From a virus (lineage: Duplodnaviria > Heunggongvirae > Uroviricota > Caudoviricetes), in the IMG/VR virus record IMGVR_UViG_2562617087_000024: a stretch of DNA of 64,000 nucleotides; one strand, given 5' to 3'. Positions 20,473 to 32,926 of this stretch are shown piece after piece. The notes beneath the pieces were generated by a model that made no database searches, was not told the DNA's origin, and saw only the letters and a list, made by a program, of their open reading frames with translations. Position 1 is the stretch's first letter, and each line of letters begins with the position of its first letter. The position numbers and the translations under genes were made by a program.

Positions 20473-22917
20473 TTAAAAATCAGCCTGATTCGGGATCAGT
20501 TTTTGCCAGATAGCTGAAACGTATTTTGCCTGGTAACGAGCGTCATCCAGCGCATTGTGGCGCTCACCTTCGAATGGAATAGCCGTTCTGGCATCGAAGT
20601 CTATGGCTTTCCCCAGCTCAACGATTGTGCGTACATCGCGATCGTTGTAGTAACGCCACGGGCAGGGGATCCCCTGCCGTTCGTATGAACGGCGCAAAAT
20701 CGTGTTGTCGAAGTTGGCTCCATTTCCCCAGACCTGAACAAAAAATTCACCGGAGTTTTCGTCGATAAATTCCCGCAATTGTAACAGTGCATCATCTAAC
20801 GGGATTTCATCGGTCATAATGGCAGATTGCGCTTCGCGTGATTGCTTAAGCCACCATTTAATGGTGTCCCGATCAATGACTCCGCCAGCAGTTTCCAGAT
20901 CGATAGTCTTACTAAATTCCGGTCCCATATCTCCGGTTTGCGGATCGAAAAATATTGCACCTATTGAGATAATCGGGGCATCAGGATTTTTTCCCATGGT
21001 TTCAAGGTCGATCATTAGATGGTCACACGTCCTGCTGGTGGATGTGATAATGCGATGACCGTTCACCGTAATTAAGGGATCTGCCGTCTCGCCAGTTTCA
21101 CTATCGCTGGCGTGGTCCTGAGCGCTGCCAGCATTCTCCTTGTGTGGATGTTCAGCGCCTTCCATTTTCTCCGAATCGTCTTCCTGAACTTCAACCAGGT
21201 TCTTGTCATCGAATGTTTCCTGGTATGTTGCGTCGCCCATCACCGCGCCACAATCAGGGCAGTTGCCGCCACTCCTCTGACCGCAGGCGGTGCAGATCTT
21301 TTCCGGTTCCTGTTGCACTACTGGTTCAGGTTGTTTCGTTTCTGGCTCGTTTTGTTGCGTATTTGGGCTGTTCTGTTCCGCTTTCTGGTCGTTCTGTTCC
21401 GTTTCTGGCTGATTCTGGTACACAGAATCGCGGGTCTGGATCCCCTTAATCCATTTCGGATCATTCGGGTCGCTAATCCCTTCAACAAATTCTCCGCGAG
21501 AGGCAGCCAGTAATTTGTCTGCATCGACAGGATTTTGGGGCGGAATGTTTTTCCGGGCTTCATGGAGTTCTGCCCGCAGTTTCTGATATTTCGCATCAAC
21601 AGAATTTATCTGTGGCTGAGCATCCATCGACTGCGTGTCCTGATTATGTTCAGTTGTATCCGGTTCCACTGCTTCAGTCGTTGCCTGTTCATCTGCCATT
21701 GCGCCAGATGGCTGCGGTTTTTCTTCATCATCCTGTTTTCCTTCTTTTGTTACACGCTGCGGCATTGGAGCAGAGGAGCGACCGCAGGCAATATCCACGA
21801 TTTCTGGATCAGGGTTGGCATGGTCGGTTTCGGTCAGTACTTTGTTCAGATATTCGGTAACACGGTGGGGAGTAGCCTCGATACCAATTGGTGCTTCTTT
21901 CACGGACGCAACCACTATCGCGCGGGAATAATCCAGGTGACCAGGCATGGCGATGAATTTGTCACGAAAAACAGAAAAGGGCGGCTTATTCTCTGAAACG
22001 ATTTCTTCAATGCGTTTGGCGTGTGCCGGATGTGGATTGTAAATATCGATGTCCATTGAACGGGCCAGAACGCCAGCGGCAACGTCACGTTCTACTGACG
22101 CATCATCGTGGACAAAACCTTCACCGCGATCGGTAAGAATTCCTCCGCCAGCATTAGCGCCGGATGGCGTGCGGCTGATGCGTAAAACACGATTTCCTTT
22201 CATCCACTCTTTTGTCAGCAGACCTCGATCGGTATAGTCAGCGTCCAGGTATGCTTCGAAAAAAGCAGTCATTAACCCCAGACTGGAATTAACGGGATTA
22301 GGGAAAACTTTGTCTGTGTCGCGTACCAGTTTGTGAAGGTCGCGAATCTCCAGCGGGTCGAGCAGCTTTGTGTTGTGGGAAATAGCCAGGGCAGTAACAG
22401 CAGGCAGTTCTTCAGCTCGTGCGATATGTAATGCCTGAAGTTCTTCCCGTGAAACGTGCGTTACCGGTTTTTCGCTGCCATGTTGCGCAAGCCAGCGAAT
22501 GGGCAGTTCCTGACCGGAAATCGGCAGGAGCATATTATCCTCAATCTCAGCCATGTCTTCGCCATTGACGTTGGTATTGTCAGAGCTGGCTGGTTTGTCC
22601 TGAACTGAGGGGGAAGGCGCTATAAATATCATTGTGATGCCATCTTCCCCGCCTTTTTCATAGCGGTTGCAGAATTCAGTATCGAACACACCTTCAGGCG
22701 GCAGGTCATTAACAATGGGCAAATTCACGCGAACAGGTTTTTTGAAATCCTCTTCGTCAAATCCAGCATCGTCCATTGCGACAACACCCCGTGATATTGC
22801 AACCGATAATTTTTTTGCTGTGCGCCAGTAAAAACCGCCTTTAATCCCAAGGCGTTTTCTGACTTTGTCATTTTTGGCTTCGTAATACAGTGCAATTTCT
22901 TCTTTATCAGTGCTCAT
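20473..22917 (-). CDS. RecE-like exodeoxyribonuclease VIII family protein with C-terminal DnaQ-like (DEDD) 3'-5' exonuclease-type domain
   Basis: 814 aa; central region matches recalled RecE ([39 protein letters not shown]…); C-terminus has MIDLETMG…GANFD…[10 protein letters not shown] exonuclease motifs; Cys4 ribbon in between. Confidence 0.65.
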
Positions 22918-23009: not shown

Positions 23010-23198
23010 TTATCCAGCCGGTATTTCGTTATTCAGGTACAGCGATACTTTGTTTAACGGGAGACATTCACCGGAAATTTTTTGCTCGTCTCTTGCCTGA
23101 TGGCAGGATTCTTTACTGGCATAAATTCCGGTAATCACATTCTGTGGCTCACCTGTTATAAGAAAAACCGTCATCATCAGTGCAAACGCTGAACTCAC
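23010..23198 (-). CDS. small protein in ydfD position of dic operon (hypothetical)
   Basis: 62 aa ORF overlapping dicB stop; position as ydfD in Qin-type dic operon. Confidence 0.45.
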   Translation of the reverse strand: MSSAFALMMTVFLITGEPQNVITGIYASKESCHQARDEQKISGECLPLNKVSLYLNNEIPAG

Positions 23199-23383
23199 TG
23201 CTGCCCTCCGAAAATGCCAAGTTCAAGAAGGGCAATTCTGGAGAGTATGGAATTATCATTGAGAAGATAAGGCTCATATTTTCTCATCCTGATGGCGTCT
23301 TCAGTAAACTCCCGGTTACTGAGCAGAATACCAATATTAAAACACCCTTCAGACGTATTAACGTTTGGTAGTGACGTTTCCAT
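23195..23383 (-). CDS. dicB: cell division inhibitor DicB
   Basis: 62 aa, METSLPNVNTSEGCF…FTEDAI matches recalled K-12 DicB N-terminus. Confidence 0.85.
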   Translation of the reverse strand: METSLPNVNTSEGCFNIGILLSNREFTEDAIRMRKYEPYLLNDNSILSRIALLELGIFGGQQ

Positions 23384-23555
23384 TATCGCGTCCTCAACAA
23401 TGAATTTTGTGATGTGGTGCCTGGTGCCTCCAGGTGACGTTAACCAGTTAACAATTAACGCCGGAATACAGAATCACCCATAACGCTGTTTTTAGCTTTA
23501 ACTGTTCCGCGTGCGCTCAGCCGCATTCACCACATCACAAAATTCACTTTAAAAA

Positions 23556-23608
23556 GGGCGGCAGAGCAGTCACGGAGTAAAACTGATACCGCCAAACGTC
23601 ACCAGAAA
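23556..23608 (-). ncRNA. dicF: DicF small regulatory RNA
   Basis: Minus-strand sequence tttctggtgacgtttggcggtatcagttttactccgtgactgctctgccgccc identical to recalled 53-nt E. coli DicF, followed by T-run and flanking processing stem. Confidence 0.9.
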
Positions 23609-23948
23609 ATTGATAACAGAAGGCGTTGCAGCGGGGTTGTCACTTAAGCGTATGGTCAACCTGACAACCCGGTGTCCTCAACGGGGAAGAAATAACCCCG
23701 CCATACTTACCGCCGCACCATTTCGCGGGTTGCCACAACCGGAAGCGCACGGTCGACGAAAATTTAACGACAGGCTATCTATGAACCAGCTACCTCGCCG
23801 TGCGCTTTCGCGTTATGGTCTGACTTTTCAGGGAAATATCCTTTCAGTAAACTGTCAGTGCCGGATGCTCACCCGCGTCCGGCGCACGCACTCCACCTCA
23901 CCCGTGGAGAACTACTTAATTACCAACCTTAGCTTCGTTGGTTAGCTA

Positions 23949-24167
23949 TTAACGCGGGTATGTAATCATTCTGGCAATGCTTAATGCCGCTGCTTTTTCC
24001 AGATTGGTGATATCCTGCTCCAGAGCGGACAGTTTTTCAGCCTGCTTAGCCCTGGCTTCATTGGCCCATTTCAGATCCTGCGCTGCATTAATTTTCTGGC
24101 GCATCCACTCATAAAGTTCATCATCGGTATAGTCTGGTGCGATGATGACGGGTTCTCGTTTCTGCAT
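23949..24167 (-). CDS. YdfC-like protein of dic operon (hypothetical)
   Basis: 72 aa, coiled-coil; same size and position as ydfC upstream of dicF. Confidence 0.5.
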   Translation of the reverse strand: MQKREPVIIAPDYTDDELYEWMRQKINAAQDLKWANEARAKQAEKLSALEQDITNLEKAAALSIARMITYPR

Positions 24168-24196
24168 ACTGATTCCTCGCGGTGCTGTTTCGCTTA

Positions 24197-24325
24197 TCAG
24201 CCGTTAGATTTTGCCGAGCTGGAAAGCGCCTGTTTAAATTCGTTGAAGCTGAGAGCTTCTTCGCCGTCGGCAAGACCTTCGAAGTATTCTTCATAAGCCT
24301 TTTCCATGATTGTGTCGAAATCCAT
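24197..24325 (-). CDS. YdfB-like small protein (42 aa)
   Basis: Hand-translated MDFDTIMEKAYEEYFEGLADGEEALSFNEFKQALSSSAKSNG with aggtga RBS; below the ORF-track size cut-off. Confidence 0.4.
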   Translation of the reverse strand: MDFDTIMEKAYEEYFEGLADGEEALSFNEFKQALSSSAKSNG

Positions 24326-24326
24326 A

Positions 24327-24482
24327 TCACTCACCTGAGTTTCTTTCCAGCCAGCGACGGGCACCATTTTCGGTTTTAAACGTTTTGCTTTTGGTATACG
24401 TCATCGCGGTGAACGTGCCGTCCTGGTTGGGGAACACGCCACATACCAGAGATTCGCTGTTGCCAAGATCGATAGTATCCAT
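24327..24482 (-). CDS. YdfA-like small protein (51 aa)
   Basis: Internal Met of the 86-aa ORF gives a 51-aa product MDTIDLGNSES…; start site uncertain (ORF-track start is 24587). Confidence 0.4.
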   Translation of the reverse strand: MDTIDLGNSESLVCGVFPNQDGTFTAMTYTKSKTFKTENGARRWLERNSGE

Positions 24483-24671
24483 GCTGACCTCATTTCCCCT
24501 TAACGCCGGGTAGCGGAACTGTTTGCTGAGAACACCGTGCGGTGTCTTGATGGGTGGTAATTTAGTTTTCTCATGAATGTTGGTCAAGTATTTTTAATGA
24601 GAAAACTCAATATTTAATGCAAAATAAAGCCAATACATTGAAATGTAAGGCTTTAAAATTTGTGAAGGGGG

Positions 24672-25079
24672 TTACTGATGTTTGTTACGTTTGCGAGCTT
24701 CTAGTAGCTCGGTGAATAGGCGATTAAAATTCTCAACGCGGGCACGGAGTTCGCTGATTTGTGCTTGCTGCTCTGATTTTGGAAGTGCGCGATACAATCG
24801 CAACATCTCCAACTCATCTTCCGATAAGTCTAAGGCGCTGTTGAGTGCAACTGGTGGATCTGGTGTTTTATCCTCGTCACCAAACAGTATCCAAGTTGGT
24901 GAACATTGCAATACCTCAGCCAGGCGATGCAAATTTTGCCCGCGCGGGGCTGTATGGTCGCTTTCCCATAGTGAAATTGATGAGCCAGATACGCCAGCGG
25001 CTTTGCTTAAATCGTTTTGACTTAAACCAACCTGTTTGCGTCTTTCTCTAATTCGTTGACCTAAAGTTTTCTCGTTCAT
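24672..25079 (-). CDS. dicA: prophage repressor, DicA-like (HTH XRE family)
   Basis: 135 aa, N-terminal HTH (QRIRERRKQVGLSQNDLSKAAGVS), …LQCSPTWILFGDEDK… as recalled for DicA; divergent from cro-like gene. Confidence 0.8.
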   Translation of the reverse strand: MNEKTLGQRIRERRKQVGLSQNDLSKAAGVSGSSISLWESDHTAPRGQNLHRLAEVLQCSPTWILFGDEDKTPDPPVALNSALDLSEDELEMLRLYRALPKSEQQAQISELRARVENFNRLFTELLEARKRNKHQ

Positions 25080-32551: not shown

Positions 32552-32926
32552 ATGCTCATAGATTTGGTTTTACCTTACCCGCCGACGGTGAACACTTACT
32601 GGCGACGCCGTGGCAGCACATATTTTGTATCAAAAGCCGGGAAGCGTTATCGCCGGGCAGTGGCGCTTATTGTTCGCCAGCAGCGACTGAAATTAAGCCT
32701 GTCCGGACGGCTGGCAATAAAAATTATTGCAGAGCCACCGGATAAGCGCCGCCGCGACCTGGACAATATCCTGAAAGCACCGCTGGATGCGCTGACGCAC
32801 GCGGGGTTGTTAATGGACGATGAGCAGTTTGATGAAATCAATATTGTACGTGGAAAGCCAGTATCTGGTGGACGTCTGGGGGTGAAGATTTACCCCATAA
32901 TGCTTGAAGGGCAGGTCAAAAAATGA
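32552..32926 (+). CDS. rusA: Holliday junction resolvase RusA
   Basis: 124 aa; …DKRRRDLDNILKAPLDALTHAGLLMDDEQ… matches the RusA catalytic region. Confidence 0.85.
   Translation: MLIDLVLPYPPTVNTYWRRRGSTYFVSKAGKRYRRAVALIVRQQRLKLSLSGRLAIKIIAEPPDKRRRDLDNILKAPLDALTHAGLLMDDEQFDEINIVRGKPVSGGRLGVKIYPIMLEGQVKK

What the first reader, a model, noticed from the sequence alone, without database searches (positions are those of the whole stretch)
20473..22917. RecE-like protein whose C-terminal domain looks like a DnaQ/DEDD 3'-5' exonuclease, with no recT partner
The N-terminal and central two-thirds resemble RecE (exonuclease VIII), but the C-terminal ~200 aa carry motifs typical of DEDD-type exonucleases ([23 protein letters not shown]) rather than the lambda-exo-like nuclease expected for RecE. 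A Cys4 ribbon (CTACGQ…CPDCG) precedes it, and no RecT/Bet-like annealase gene is adjacent. This domain combination may represent a distinct recombination or anti-host nuclease function.
Basis: inference. Interest (0 to 1): 0.55.

Follow-up and report, generated by a model that had tools for sequence, protein, structure and literature searches.

The report
RecE chassis carrying a 3'-5' exonuclease
This E. coli O157:H7 prophage gene keeps the function-unknown front 600 residues of the recombination nuclease RecE but replaces RecE's 5'-3' nuclease with a DEDDh 3'-5' exonuclease and has no RecT partner; the arrangement is common in databases, but I found no experimental study of it.

Summary
Window 20473-22917(-) encodes an 814-aa protein. 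Residues 58-617 are 75% identical to K-12 RecE 50-592. Homology stops just before RecE's PD-(D/E)xK nuclease. Residues 633-804 are an Rv2179c/DexA-like DEDDh 3'-5' exonuclease (Pfam E 2e-67; AF2 pLDDT 90.6; best solved match T4 DexA). The catalytic residues D637, E639, D737, H787 and D792 are intact.

The Cys4 ribbon is also present in canonical RecE, so it is not distinctive.

The gene is the last early-left gene before xis-int of a lambdoid prophage at ompW. It is not rare: it covers at least 80% of the query in 1252 of 5426 complete E. coli genomes, where it is annotated 'exonuclease'.

In 60 loci from Enterobacteriaceae, 20 of 20 DEDDh versions lack recT and 30 of 30 PD-(D/E)xK versions have recT abutting. 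The two nuclease types are interleaved on a tree of the shared N-terminal domain. DEDDh-type prophages are Chi-rich (this one has 11 active and 3 inactive sites) and fit the published 'no Rec module, high Chi' class.

Best reading: an annealase-independent, end-directed 3'-5' exonuclease made early in lytic growth. Its biological role is inferred, not shown. It is a new variant of a known kind, of moderate interest.

The parts
20473..22917 (-). Whole gene: 814-aa RecE-N::DEDDh exonuclease, identical to WP_000102168.1
   Evidence: ORF. 100% identical to an annotated 'exonuclease' in E. coli 2014C-3061 and TW14359. Exact protein P0001 is seen on at least 999 contigs.
22618..22917 (-). N-terminal alpha/beta domain, aa 1-100 (part of the RecE chassis)
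21733..22560 (-). Helical domain, aa 120-395, the best-conserved part of the RecE N-terminal region
   Evidence: AF2 pLDDT about 80-98. Falls within the stretch that is 75% identical to K-12 RecE. Used for the tree.
21499..21603 (-). Conserved helix pair, aa 439-473, at the start of the segment shared with RecE and with the YdfE-type protein P0125
   Evidence: Helices 439-456 and 466-473 with pLDDT about 80-90. P0125 matches query residues 462-814.
21250..21294 (-). Cys4 zinc ribbon (C542, C545, C553, C556)
   Evidence: Motif positions. Weak Pfam DZR hit at 539-560. Conserved in K-12 RecE. AF2 pLDDT about 75.
21022..21066 (-). Breakpoint linker, aa 618-632, where homology to RecE ends and the DEDDh domain has not yet begun
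   Evidence: BLASTP homology ends at residue 617. Pfam domain starts at 633. DNA homology to Rac recE starts at query nt 599 = window 21071. AF2 predicts disorder over 564-632.
20506..21021 (-). DEDDh (Rv2179c/DexA-like) 3'-5' exonuclease domain, aa 633-804; catalytic D637, E639, D737, H787, D792
   Evidence: Pfam match. PDB sequence hit to 8kel at E 1.6e-6. In a 60-sequence alignment D637, E639, D737 and H787 are invariant and D792 is at least 90% conserved. AF2 and Foldseek results.
21034..21041 (+). Chi site (GCTGGTGG on the + strand) inside the gene, at codons 626-628 in the breakpoint linker
   Evidence: The same position, 9 codons before the DxE motif, holds a Chi in L016, L004, L005 and Atlantibacter L048.
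20445..20452 (+). Chi site between the exonuclease gene and xis
20160..20408 (-). Excisionase gene directly downstream
   Evidence: Pfam Exc. PGAP 'excisionase'.
19043..20182 (-). Integrase gene, split into two ORFs in this window by indels; attL lies next to an ompW fragment
   Evidence: ORFs. Pfam Arm-DNA-bind and Phage_integrase. Intact in TW14359. Indels at 19622 and 19893-19927.
23010..25079 (-). Rest of the early-left operon upstream: DUF1482/ydfD-like, dicB, DicF sRNA (23556-23607), ydfC, ydfB, ydfA and the DicA-like repressor (24672-25079). No annealase or RecBCD inhibitor.
   Evidence: Pfam, Rfam DicF at 76.7 bits, PGAP annotation.

Best explanation
The gene encodes a modular early-lytic nuclease built on the RecE 'chassis'. 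The chassis has two folded N-terminal domains of unknown fold (aa 1-100 and 120-395). These are followed by long acidic disordered linkers, a short helix pair and a Cys4 zinc ribbon. In place of RecE's PD-(D/E)xK 5'-3' nuclease, the chassis carries a DEDDh (DnaQ-superfamily, Rv2179c/DexA-like) domain. That domain should remove nucleotides from free 3' ends by two-metal-ion hydrolysis, with His787 as general base. DNA is the most likely substrate, because the closest solved relative is the T4 DNase DexA.

It acts without a single-strand annealing partner. The gene lies at the distal end of the repressor-controlled leftward operon, directly before xis and int. The phage has no Rec module and instead carries many correctly oriented Chi sites, so homologous recombination is left to host RecBCD/RecA.

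My inferred role is processing of 3' ends at phage or host DNA ends during lytic growth. The N-terminal chassis would supply targeting that is independent of nuclease polarity.

Shown here: the architecture, the fold, the intact catalytic residues, the gene context, the exclusion of recT and the Chi enrichment. Inferred: substrate, polarity in vitro, time of expression and biological role.
For: Architecture and breakpoint.

Fold and catalytic residues.

Gene order: cI-like repressor, small genes, exonuclease, xis, int. This order holds in the window, in four other E. coli genomes and in two E. coli phage records, one a complete genome (HannyBb).

Comparative set of 60 Enterobacteriaceae loci:
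- 20 of 20 DEDDh-type genes are followed only by xis and int (276-366 nt from stop codon to int), and none has a RecT-family ORF within 8 kb.
- 30 of 30 PD-(D/E)xK-type genes have a RecT-family ORF abutting the stop codon.

No Bet, Gam or Sak4 homologue was found in DEDDh loci. Larger upstream ORFs carry no SAP Pfam domain.

A neighbour-joining tree of the shared helical domain interleaves the two nuclease types. The nuclease module has therefore been exchanged repeatedly on one chassis.

Chi: 14 sites, all in the prophage, 11 on the + strand and 3 on the - strand, against 2.4 expected. Active-orientation Chi averages 4.3 per 10 kb in DEDDh loci against 1.7 in RecE/RecT loci, p = 1.6e-4. This fits the 'no Rec module, high Chi' class of Zheng et al. 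2025 (PMC12315714). That paper also notes sporadic DnaQ-type nuclease genes near int.
Against: No biochemical or genetic data exist for this protein or any full-length relative.

Pfam names the domain family after an exoribonuclease (Rv2179c), so RNA could be the substrate.

3'-5' exonucleases generally destroy the 3' tails that recombination needs (noted in PMC12315714), so a pro-recombination role is not obvious.

Lambdoid cos ends carry 5' overhangs (general knowledge), which need no 3' trimming.

A published E. coli DexA homologue acts as an anti-T4 defence (PMC12153337).

Expression from the early-left promoter is inferred from gene order only. The promoter and terminator scans are no better than chance.

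The locus comparison is not corrected for shared ancestry, and the tree has no bootstrap support values.
Confidence: 0.5

Rival explanations
1. It is a prophage-encoded exclusion (defence) nuclease of the HREX type. Like the E. coli DexA homologue EcD, the DEDDh domain would spare unmodified DNA and degrade the modified (5hmC) DNA of superinfecting T-even phages. The RecE-like N-terminal region would serve as sensor or tether.
For: The domain's closest solved relative is T4 DexA. Kang et al. 2025 (PMC12153337) report that an E. coli DexA homologue protects against T4 and digests the T4 genome but not unmodified dsDNA. They note that Escherichia is the commonest bacterial genus holding DexA homologues. 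The gene is carried by prophages in about 23% of complete E. coli genomes.
Against: EcD is a different protein: its cloning primers give an N-terminus MIDTET and a C-terminus ...TIPETYD, and no retrieved relative matches. The residue whose loss defines the 'defence' form, DexA D90, aligns with a retained Asp here (D709). The 5hmC-stacking Trp (DexA W152) is Tyr757 here, although the family consensus is Trp. The gene sits inside the repressor-controlled early-left operon and not in a lysogenically expressed moron position. PADLOC gives only a weak generic DEDDh hit. Repeated exchange with a recombination nuclease on one chassis points to DNA metabolism.
Confidence: 0.17
2. It is an RNA exonuclease. 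The Rv2179c-like domain would trim or degrade RNA 3' ends during lytic growth, acting on host or phage transcripts or on sRNAs such as the co-transcribed DicF. Alternatively it would restrict RNA phages, like the ISG20-like TONDO enzymes.
For: Pfam and PGAP name the domain a 3'-5' exoribonuclease. Structural neighbours include RNase T, oligoribonuclease and REXO2. DEDDh exonucleases with auxiliary domains defend against RNA phages (PMC13344964). DicF lies in the same operon.
Against: The best structural and sequence match is a DNase, DexA. The TONDO authors describe their enzymes as distinct in sequence from other defence-associated DEDDh domains. The chassis is otherwise attached to a dsDNA exonuclease with a DNA annealase. 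There is no RNA-binding domain.
Confidence: 0.12
3. It is a counter-defence or host-takeover enzyme. It would remove 3'-ended nucleic-acid species that trigger or carry out host immunity (for example retron msDNA or signalling oligonucleotides), or scavenge host DNA fragments for nucleotides as T4 DexA does.
For: DexA's classical role is host-DNA scavenging (PMC12153337 abstract). Relatives such as Orn and REXO2 degrade short oligonucleotides. The inferred early lytic expression suits a takeover function.
Against: Nothing in the locus links it to a particular defence system. As far as I know (general knowledge), temperate lambdoid phages do not degrade the host chromosome. A 600-residue chassis shared with RecE is unexplained by a pure scavenging role.
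Confidence: 0.1
4. It is a decaying recombination accident with no function of its own: a chimeric remnant in a defective prophage.
For: The prophage in this window has a disrupted integrase. K-12 carries an IS2-truncated pseudogene (ydfE) of the sister architecture. One E. coli copy is frameshifted.
Against: The reading frame is intact over 814 codons and all five catalytic residues are conserved. The architecture occurs in about 15 clusters at 50% identity, down to roughly 25-45% identity. It occurs in 20 loci from more than 12 genera and in isolated phages.
Confidence: 0.03

Closest known systems
RecE (exodeoxyribonuclease VIII) of the Rac prophage, E. coli K-12
   Same: Residues 58-617 are 75% identical to RecE 50-592. 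This covers the Pfam Exonuc_VIII domain, the helical domain, the acidic linkers and the Cys4 ribbon. The gene occupies the same place in the early-left operon ahead of xis-int.
   Different: The C-terminal PD-(D/E)xK toroidal 5'-3' nuclease (RecE residues 564/606-866) is absent and replaced by a DEDDh domain of the opposite expected polarity. There is no recT. The match scores below the NCBIfam RecE cut-off (1093 against 1269) and covers only profile positions 1-603 of 877.
T4 DexA (exonuclease A; PDB 8KEL/8KEN) and the Rv2179c-like family PF16473
   Same: The C-terminal 180 residues have the same fold and the DEDDh catalytic set. The family is very common in phages as a stand-alone protein of about 180-230 aa.
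   Different: DexA and most relatives are single-domain proteins. Here the domain is tethered to a 630-residue RecE-type N-terminal region. Identity to DexA is only about 20%. The position of DexA W152 holds Tyr.
YdfE-type exonuclease of Qin-like prophages (823 aa, P0125; K-12 ydfE is its IS2-truncated remnant)
   Same: It shares the C-terminal ~350 residues (helix pair, Zn ribbon, linker, DEDDh domain; query residues 462-814). It occupies the same slot after dicB-ydfD and before xis-int.
   Different: Its N-terminal ~470 residues are unrelated to RecE.
'No Rec module, high Chi' lambdoid phages (phage LLS class; Zheng, Casjens, Davidson, Amundsen, Smith 2025, PMC12315714)
   Same: This prophage has no annealase or RecBCD inhibitor. 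It has 11 Chi sites in the active and 3 in the inactive orientation, which meets the paper's description of at least 8 active and at most 6 inactive. The paper mentions sporadic DnaQ-type nuclease genes near int.
   Different: The paper does not describe the RecE-N::DEDDh fusion and explicitly leaves such nucleases out of the Rec module. LLS itself carries other genes (yfbR, yfdQ, yfdP) in that region.
EcD / HREX defence exonuclease (Kang et al. 2025, PMC12153337)
   Same: It is an E. coli homologue of DexA with a conserved DEDDh catalytic set.
   Different: EcD appears to be a short stand-alone protein with different termini. The diagnostic substitutions are not reproduced here (D709 retained; Tyr757 instead of Trp).

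Membership tests
RecE / exodeoxyribonuclease VIII (NCBIfam NF007259 equivalog) | N-terminal Exonuc_VIII region (PF06630) and the RecE middle region | tested here: met
   PF06630 E 4e-34. 75% identity to RecE 50-592.
RecE / exodeoxyribonuclease VIII (NCBIfam NF007259 equivalog) | Whole-protein score above the curated cut-off | tested here: not met
   1093.2 bits against a cut-off of 1269. Only profile positions 1-603 of 877 are matched.
RecE / exodeoxyribonuclease VIII (NCBIfam NF007259 equivalog) | C-terminal PD-(D/E)xK (RecB-like, PF12684) nuclease domain | tested here: not met
   No PF12684 hit, whereas K-12 RecE has one at 615-850. No homology after residue 617. The predicted fold is DEDDh.
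RecE / exodeoxyribonuclease VIII (NCBIfam NF007259 equivalog) | 5'-3' dsDNA exonuclease activity | not testable with these tools
   Needs an enzyme assay. The domain that carries this activity in RecE is absent.
SynExo two-component recombinase (exonuclease plus single-strand annealing protein) | Adjacent annealase gene (RecT, Redbeta, Erf or Sak) | tested here: not met
   No RecT-family ORF in the window or in 20 of 20 DEDDh-type loci, against 30 of 30 PD-(D/E)xK-type loci. No Bet, Gam or Sak4 homologue. Erf and Rad52-type proteins were checked only through PGAP annotation and Pfam scans of selected ORFs.
DEDDh exonucleases, Rv2179c/DexA-like (PF16473) | Profile match above the gathering score | tested here: met
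   226.7 bits against 27; residues 633-804 cover profile positions 2-177 of 177.
DEDDh exonucleases, Rv2179c/DexA-like (PF16473) | Catalytic Asp-Glu-Asp-Asp plus His (Exo I DxE, Exo II D, Exo III Hx4D) | tested here: met
   D637, E639, D737, H787 and D792. In 60 diverse homologues D637, E639, D737 and H787 are invariant and D792 is at least 90% conserved.
DEDDh exonucleases, Rv2179c/DexA-like (PF16473) | RNase H-like DnaQ fold | tested here: met
   AF2 pLDDT 90.6. Foldseek probability 1.00 to DexA, RNase T, REXO2 and Orn.
DEDDh exonucleases, Rv2179c/DexA-like (PF16473) | Metal-dependent 3'-5' exonuclease activity and substrate (DNA or RNA) | not testable with these tools
   Needs an enzyme assay.
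HREX defence exonuclease (EcD-like) | Loss of the DexA D90 tetramerisation residue, with the 5hmC-recognition Trp (W152) and Asp (D169) kept | tested here: inconclusive
   In the phmmer alignment DexA D90 pairs with D709 (retained) and W152 pairs with Y757. The D169 position lies outside the aligned stretch.
HREX defence exonuclease (EcD-like) | Protection of the cell against T4 and selective digestion of 5hmC DNA | not testable with these tools
   Needs plaque and nuclease assays. The published data concern a different homologue.
'No Rec module, high Chi' lambdoid phage class (PMC12315714) | No annealase, SSB or anti-RecBCD module in the early-left operon | tested here: met
   PGAP annotation and Pfam scans of all early-left ORFs. 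No RecT, Bet, Gam or Sak4 homologue.
'No Rec module, high Chi' lambdoid phage class (PMC12315714) | At least 8 Chi sites in the active orientation and at most 6 in the inactive one | tested here: met
   11 on the + strand and 3 on the - strand within about 45 kb of prophage, and none in the 19 kb to the left of it. 2.4 are expected by chance.

The most novel reading that the evidence does not exclude
The RecE N-terminal region, whose function has been unknown since RecE was dissected, is an autonomous targeting module for DNA ends or for a host factor, and it accepts nucleases of either polarity. With the PD-(D/E)xK domain it always works with RecT. With the DEDDh domain it defines an annealase-free strategy in Chi-rich phages. 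In that strategy 3'-end trimming prepares or regulates DNA ends for host RecBCD-Chi-RecA recombination, or excludes competing phages. Chi sites placed in the linker just upstream of the DEDDh domain may themselves promote the repeated module exchange.
Probability: 0.2. Interest if true: 0.7.

Novelty: new variant of a known kind. Interest (0 to 1): 0.45.

Why it matters
RecE/RecT is a workhorse of recombineering, yet the review literature still calls the 600-residue N-terminal part of RecE a domain 'of unknown function' (PMC11611040).

Here that same region is kept, repeatedly and across many genera, while the nuclease behind it is swapped for one of the opposite expected polarity and the annealase is dropped. 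This separates the function of the N-terminal region from 5'-3' resection and from RecT. It gives a natural pair of proteins for testing what that region does.

On the practical side, database names such as 'exodeoxyribonuclease VIII' (seen for this protein or close relatives) are misleading. K-12 ydfE can be read as the remnant of a sister exonuclease.

Tried and rejected
- The word-indexed homologue search with the full protein returned only near-identical E. coli sequences and gave no diversity. The representative search was used instead.
- I expected K-12 ydfE to be a truncated copy of this gene. It is not homologous to the RecE-like N-terminus. It is instead 99% identical to the N-terminus of the 823-aa sister protein P0125.
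- I tried to obtain the sequence of the published defence homologue EcD (HAK9828821.1). Only its cloning primers are available, and none of the retrieved proteins has those termini. The HREX result cannot be transferred directly.
- The 39-sequence alignment A3 was too divergent for the locus scan. A closer 13-sequence alignment worked.
- K-12 RecE could not be included in the structure job.
- I fetched part of P22 to get an Erf seed but the stretch did not contain erf. Erf-type annealases were therefore excluded only through annotation and Pfam scans.
- The promoter and terminator scan around the gene was no better than shuffled sequence for promoters (9 found, 8.8 expected). It says nothing about an own promoter.
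- Literature searches for 'Rv2179c' with 'prophage', for 'PF16473', and for 'ydfE' with 'Qin' and 'exonuclease' found nothing. The first 'RecE' search was polluted by word-start matches such as 'recent'.
- The idea that the Cys4 ribbon is a novelty of this protein is rejected, because it is in canonical RecE.
Full report
**1. What is at the coordinates**

Window 20473-22917 on the minus strand is an uninterrupted 814-codon ORF that starts with ATG.

- Pfam finds two domains above threshold: Exonuc_VIII (PF06630, residues 56-189, E 4e-34) and the Rv2179c-like 3'-5' exoribonuclease domain (PF16473, residues 633-804, E 2e-67).
- NCBI's RecE model matches only residues 1-617 to profile positions 1-603 of 877. 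The score, 1093 bits, is below the curated cut-off of 1269.
- PHROGs holds several 'exonuclease' families with this C-terminus.

**2. Where it comes from**

The window is an E. coli O157:H7 chromosome, 99.9% identical to strain TW14359. The gene belongs to a lambdoid prophage of about 45 kb inserted in ompW. The window contains almost all of that prophage.

PGAP calls the protein 'exonuclease' (WP_000102168.1). Other sources call it, or near-identical proteins, '3'-5' exoribonuclease', or misleadingly 'exodeoxyribonuclease VIII'.

At megablast level the gene is covered at 80% or more in 1252 of 5426 complete E. coli genomes. The thing is real, but it is common and already catalogued.

**3. The chimera**

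BLASTP against K-12 RecE gives 75% identity from residue 58 to 617 (RecE 50-592) and nothing beyond that. In K-12 RecE the PD-(D/E)xK nuclease (PF12684) occupies residues 615-850. Homology therefore ends in the linker just before the nuclease.

- The last 200 residues hit T4 DexA (8KEL/8KEN) by sequence at E 1.6e-6.
- In an alignment with 59 diverse homologues, D637, E639, D737 and H787 are invariant and D792 is at least 90% conserved.
- An AlphaFold2 model of residues 600-814 has mean pLDDT 90.6.
- Foldseek against the PDB finds DexA first (E 8e-12), then RNase T, REXO2 and oligoribonucleases. No PD-(D/E)xK nuclease is among the 50 best matches listed.

**4. The N-terminal part**

An AlphaFold2 model of residues 1-632 shows the following.
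- Confident alpha/beta domain: residues 1-100.
- Confident helical domain: residues 120-395.
- Helix pair: residues 439-473.
- Moderately confident zinc ribbon: around residues 538-563.
- Low-confidence, presumably disordered stretches that are acidic and polar: 395-437, 494-537 and 564-632 (composition).

**5. Gene context**

The order on the minus strand is: DicA-like repressor, ydfA, ydfB, ydfC, DicF sRNA, dicB, a DUF1482 (ydfD-like) gene, the exonuclease, xis, int.

The same order, with the exonuclease directly before xis-int and no annealase, is seen in other E. coli genomes and in the E. coli phage records vB_EcoS-689R5 (a partial genome) and HannyBb (a complete genome).

Rac has recE-recT-ralR-rcbA-xis-int at the corresponding place. 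K-12's Qin prophage has the pseudogene ydfE in this slot. ydfE is unrelated to the RecE-like N-terminus. It is 99% identical to the first 256 residues of an 823-aa protein (P0125) that shares the C-terminal ~350 residues with our protein.

The zinc-ribbon-linker-DEDDh module is thus joined to at least two unrelated N-terminal regions.

**6. How general is it**

A search of 1.84 billion cluster representatives gave 11,753 hits at E <= 0.001. Classifying the long hits with domain queries gave three groups.

| Group | Clusters at 50% identity |
|---|---|
| RecE-N plus DEDDh | about 15 |
| RecE-N plus PD-(D/E)xK | about 11 |
| RecE-N with no recognisable nuclease | about 14 |

Pfam finds only PF06630 in the third group, and one member is a RecE-N::RecT fusion.

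A scan of one genome per GTDB species returned 60 loci in Escherichia, Shigella, Salmonella, Citrobacter, Klebsiella, Enterobacter, Kluyvera, Atlantibacter, Phytobacter, Kosakonia and other genera.

- 20 loci are DEDDh-type. The gene (685-851 aa) is followed only by an 80-118-aa xis-like ORF and then, where the locus reaches that far (19 of 20), by int. The distance from stop codon to int is 276-366 nt.
- 30 loci are PD-(D/E)xK-type with enough flanking sequence. Every one has an ORF of 269-386 aa starting at about the stop codon. Eight of these were tested with Pfam and all are RecT family. An HMM built from them, together with K-12 RecT, finds such an ORF in 30 of 30 of these loci and in 0 of 20 DEDDh-type loci. 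It also finds none in the window, in HannyBb or in the other E. coli loci.
- Bet, Gam and Sak4 homologues are also absent from DEDDh loci. Ten of the larger same-strand ORFs upstream have no annealase domain.

A neighbour-joining tree of the shared helical domain interleaves the two types. For example, this protein is sister to Rac RecE, Raoultella RecE is sister to a K. pneumoniae DEDDh protein, and Phytobacter RecE groups with Kosakonia and Phytobacter DEDDh proteins. The nuclease module has therefore been exchanged several times on one chassis. The tree has no support values, so the exact number of exchanges is uncertain.

**7. Chi**

The window has 14 Chi octamers against 2.4 expected. All lie in the prophage, 11 on the + strand (the strand of the late genes) and 3 on the - strand. 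There are none in the 19 kb to the left of the prophage.

This matches the class described by Zheng, Casjens, Davidson, Amundsen and Smith in 2025. These are lambdoid phages without a Rec module that carry at least 8 Chi sites in the active and at most 6 in the inactive orientation, and that grow better with RecBCD (PMC12315714). The same paper remarks that DnaQ-type nuclease genes occur sporadically near int and does not count them as Rec module genes. It also mentions 'RecE-2' proteins without a nuclease.

Across my loci, active-orientation Chi density in the roughly 10-12 kb that ends with the nuclease or recT gene is 4.3 per 10 kb for DEDDh-type loci and 1.7 for RecE/RecT-type loci (Mann-Whitney p = 1.6e-4). 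HannyBb has only 5 active and 2 inactive sites, so the association is a tendency and not a rule.

One Chi lies at codons 626-628, inside the breakpoint linker and about 30 nt from where DNA homology to Rac recE ends. Other DEDDh-type genes also have a Chi 9, or 56-77, codons before the DxE motif. This could help module exchange, but I did not test it against a proper null.

**8. What it most likely does**

- Follows from established knowledge of the families: DEDDh enzymes remove nucleotides from 3' ends by two-metal catalysis, with the histidine as general base. SynExo recombinases need a 5'-3' exonuclease to make the 3' tail on which the annealase is loaded. An enzyme of opposite polarity has no use for RecT, which fits the perfect exclusion seen here.
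- Inferred: the enzyme acts on 3' ends of DNA during lytic growth, the N-terminal chassis supplies targeting that does not depend on nuclease polarity, and homologous recombination is left to host RecBCD, Chi and RecA.

What the trimming is for is open. Candidates are preparing ends for RecBCD, limiting unwanted 3' tails, or something else.

I give this reading about 0.5. Rivals:

| Rival reading | Basis | Weight |
|---|---|---|
| HREX-like exclusion nuclease | Published E. coli DexA homologue EcD protects against T4 (PMC12153337); EcD is a different protein and the diagnostic substitutions are not seen here | 0.17 |
| RNA exonuclease | Family name; RNase T and Orn as structural neighbours; TONDO precedent | 0.12 |
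| Counter-defence or scavenging enzyme | DexA's classical role; oligonucleotidase relatives | 0.1 |
| Functionless remnant | Contradicted by conservation | 0.03 |

**9. Novelty and score**

The domain combination is already recorded in public resources: precomputed Pfam hits, PHROGs families and PGAP names. DnaQ-type nucleases near int have been mentioned in print. I found no paper that describes this fusion or tests it.

I file it as a new variant of a known kind: a RecE-family protein with a swapped nuclease. It is a member of the DEDDh/Rv2179c-like family. It is not a member of RecE in the functional sense, because the defining nuclease domain and the RecT partner were tested and are absent.

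Interest is moderate (0.45). The protein is ordinary in abundance. However, the strict either/or pattern with RecT, the repeated module exchange and the link to Chi-rich phages make the long-unexplained RecE N-terminal region experimentally approachable.

Noticed in passing
window 19043-20182 (-): The integrase gene is split into two ORFs here (216 aa and 90 aa). Compared with the intact 1131-nt gene of TW14359 and 2014C-3061, there is a 1-nt insertion at 19622 and an 8-9-nt altered patch at 19893-19927. This copy of the prophage may be unable to excise, or the sequence may carry errors.
   Followed up: partly
window 21034-21041 (+), and L004, L005, L016, L048: A Chi octamer lies in the disordered linker 9 codons before the DxE motif of the DEDDh domain, about 30 nt from the end of DNA homology to Rac recE. 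Several other DEDDh-type genes have a Chi 56-77 codons upstream of the domain. Chi-stimulated recombination might favour exchange of the nuclease module. This was not tested against a null model.
   Followed up: partly
L010 7079-7999 (K-12 MG1655 ydfE, Qin prophage): The K-12 pseudogene ydfE is the IS2-truncated N-terminal 256 residues (99% identical) of an 823-aa protein (P0125). P0125 ends in the same zinc ribbon, linker and DEDDh exonuclease as the protein studied here but has an unrelated N-terminus.
   Followed up: yes
window 23556-23607 (-): A full-length DicF sRNA (Rfam RF00039, 76.7 bits) lies between ydfC and dicB in the same leftward operon, as in the Qin prophage.
   Followed up: no
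L011 and L012 8001-12091; L019 7869-9296; P0123: Further variants of the RecE chassis exist. One is a 474-aa nuclease-less form lying upstream of a Gam-like gene and a Sak4-type (AAA_24) gene in E. coli and Shigella. Another is a direct RecE-N::RecT fusion in Citrobacter braakii and in representative P0123.
   Followed up: partly
window 1-18900: To the left of the prophage lies the end of another lambdoid prophage (tail genes J, lom and tail fibre). It is followed by type III effector genes (nleA, nleH1-2, nleF, nleG, espM1) and several IS elements. This stretch contains no Chi site at all.
   Followed up: no
window 32552-32926 (+): The prophage encodes a RusA-family Holliday-junction resolvase in its nin-like region. 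This is the only recombination-related gene annotated in the prophage besides int and xis.
   Followed up: no
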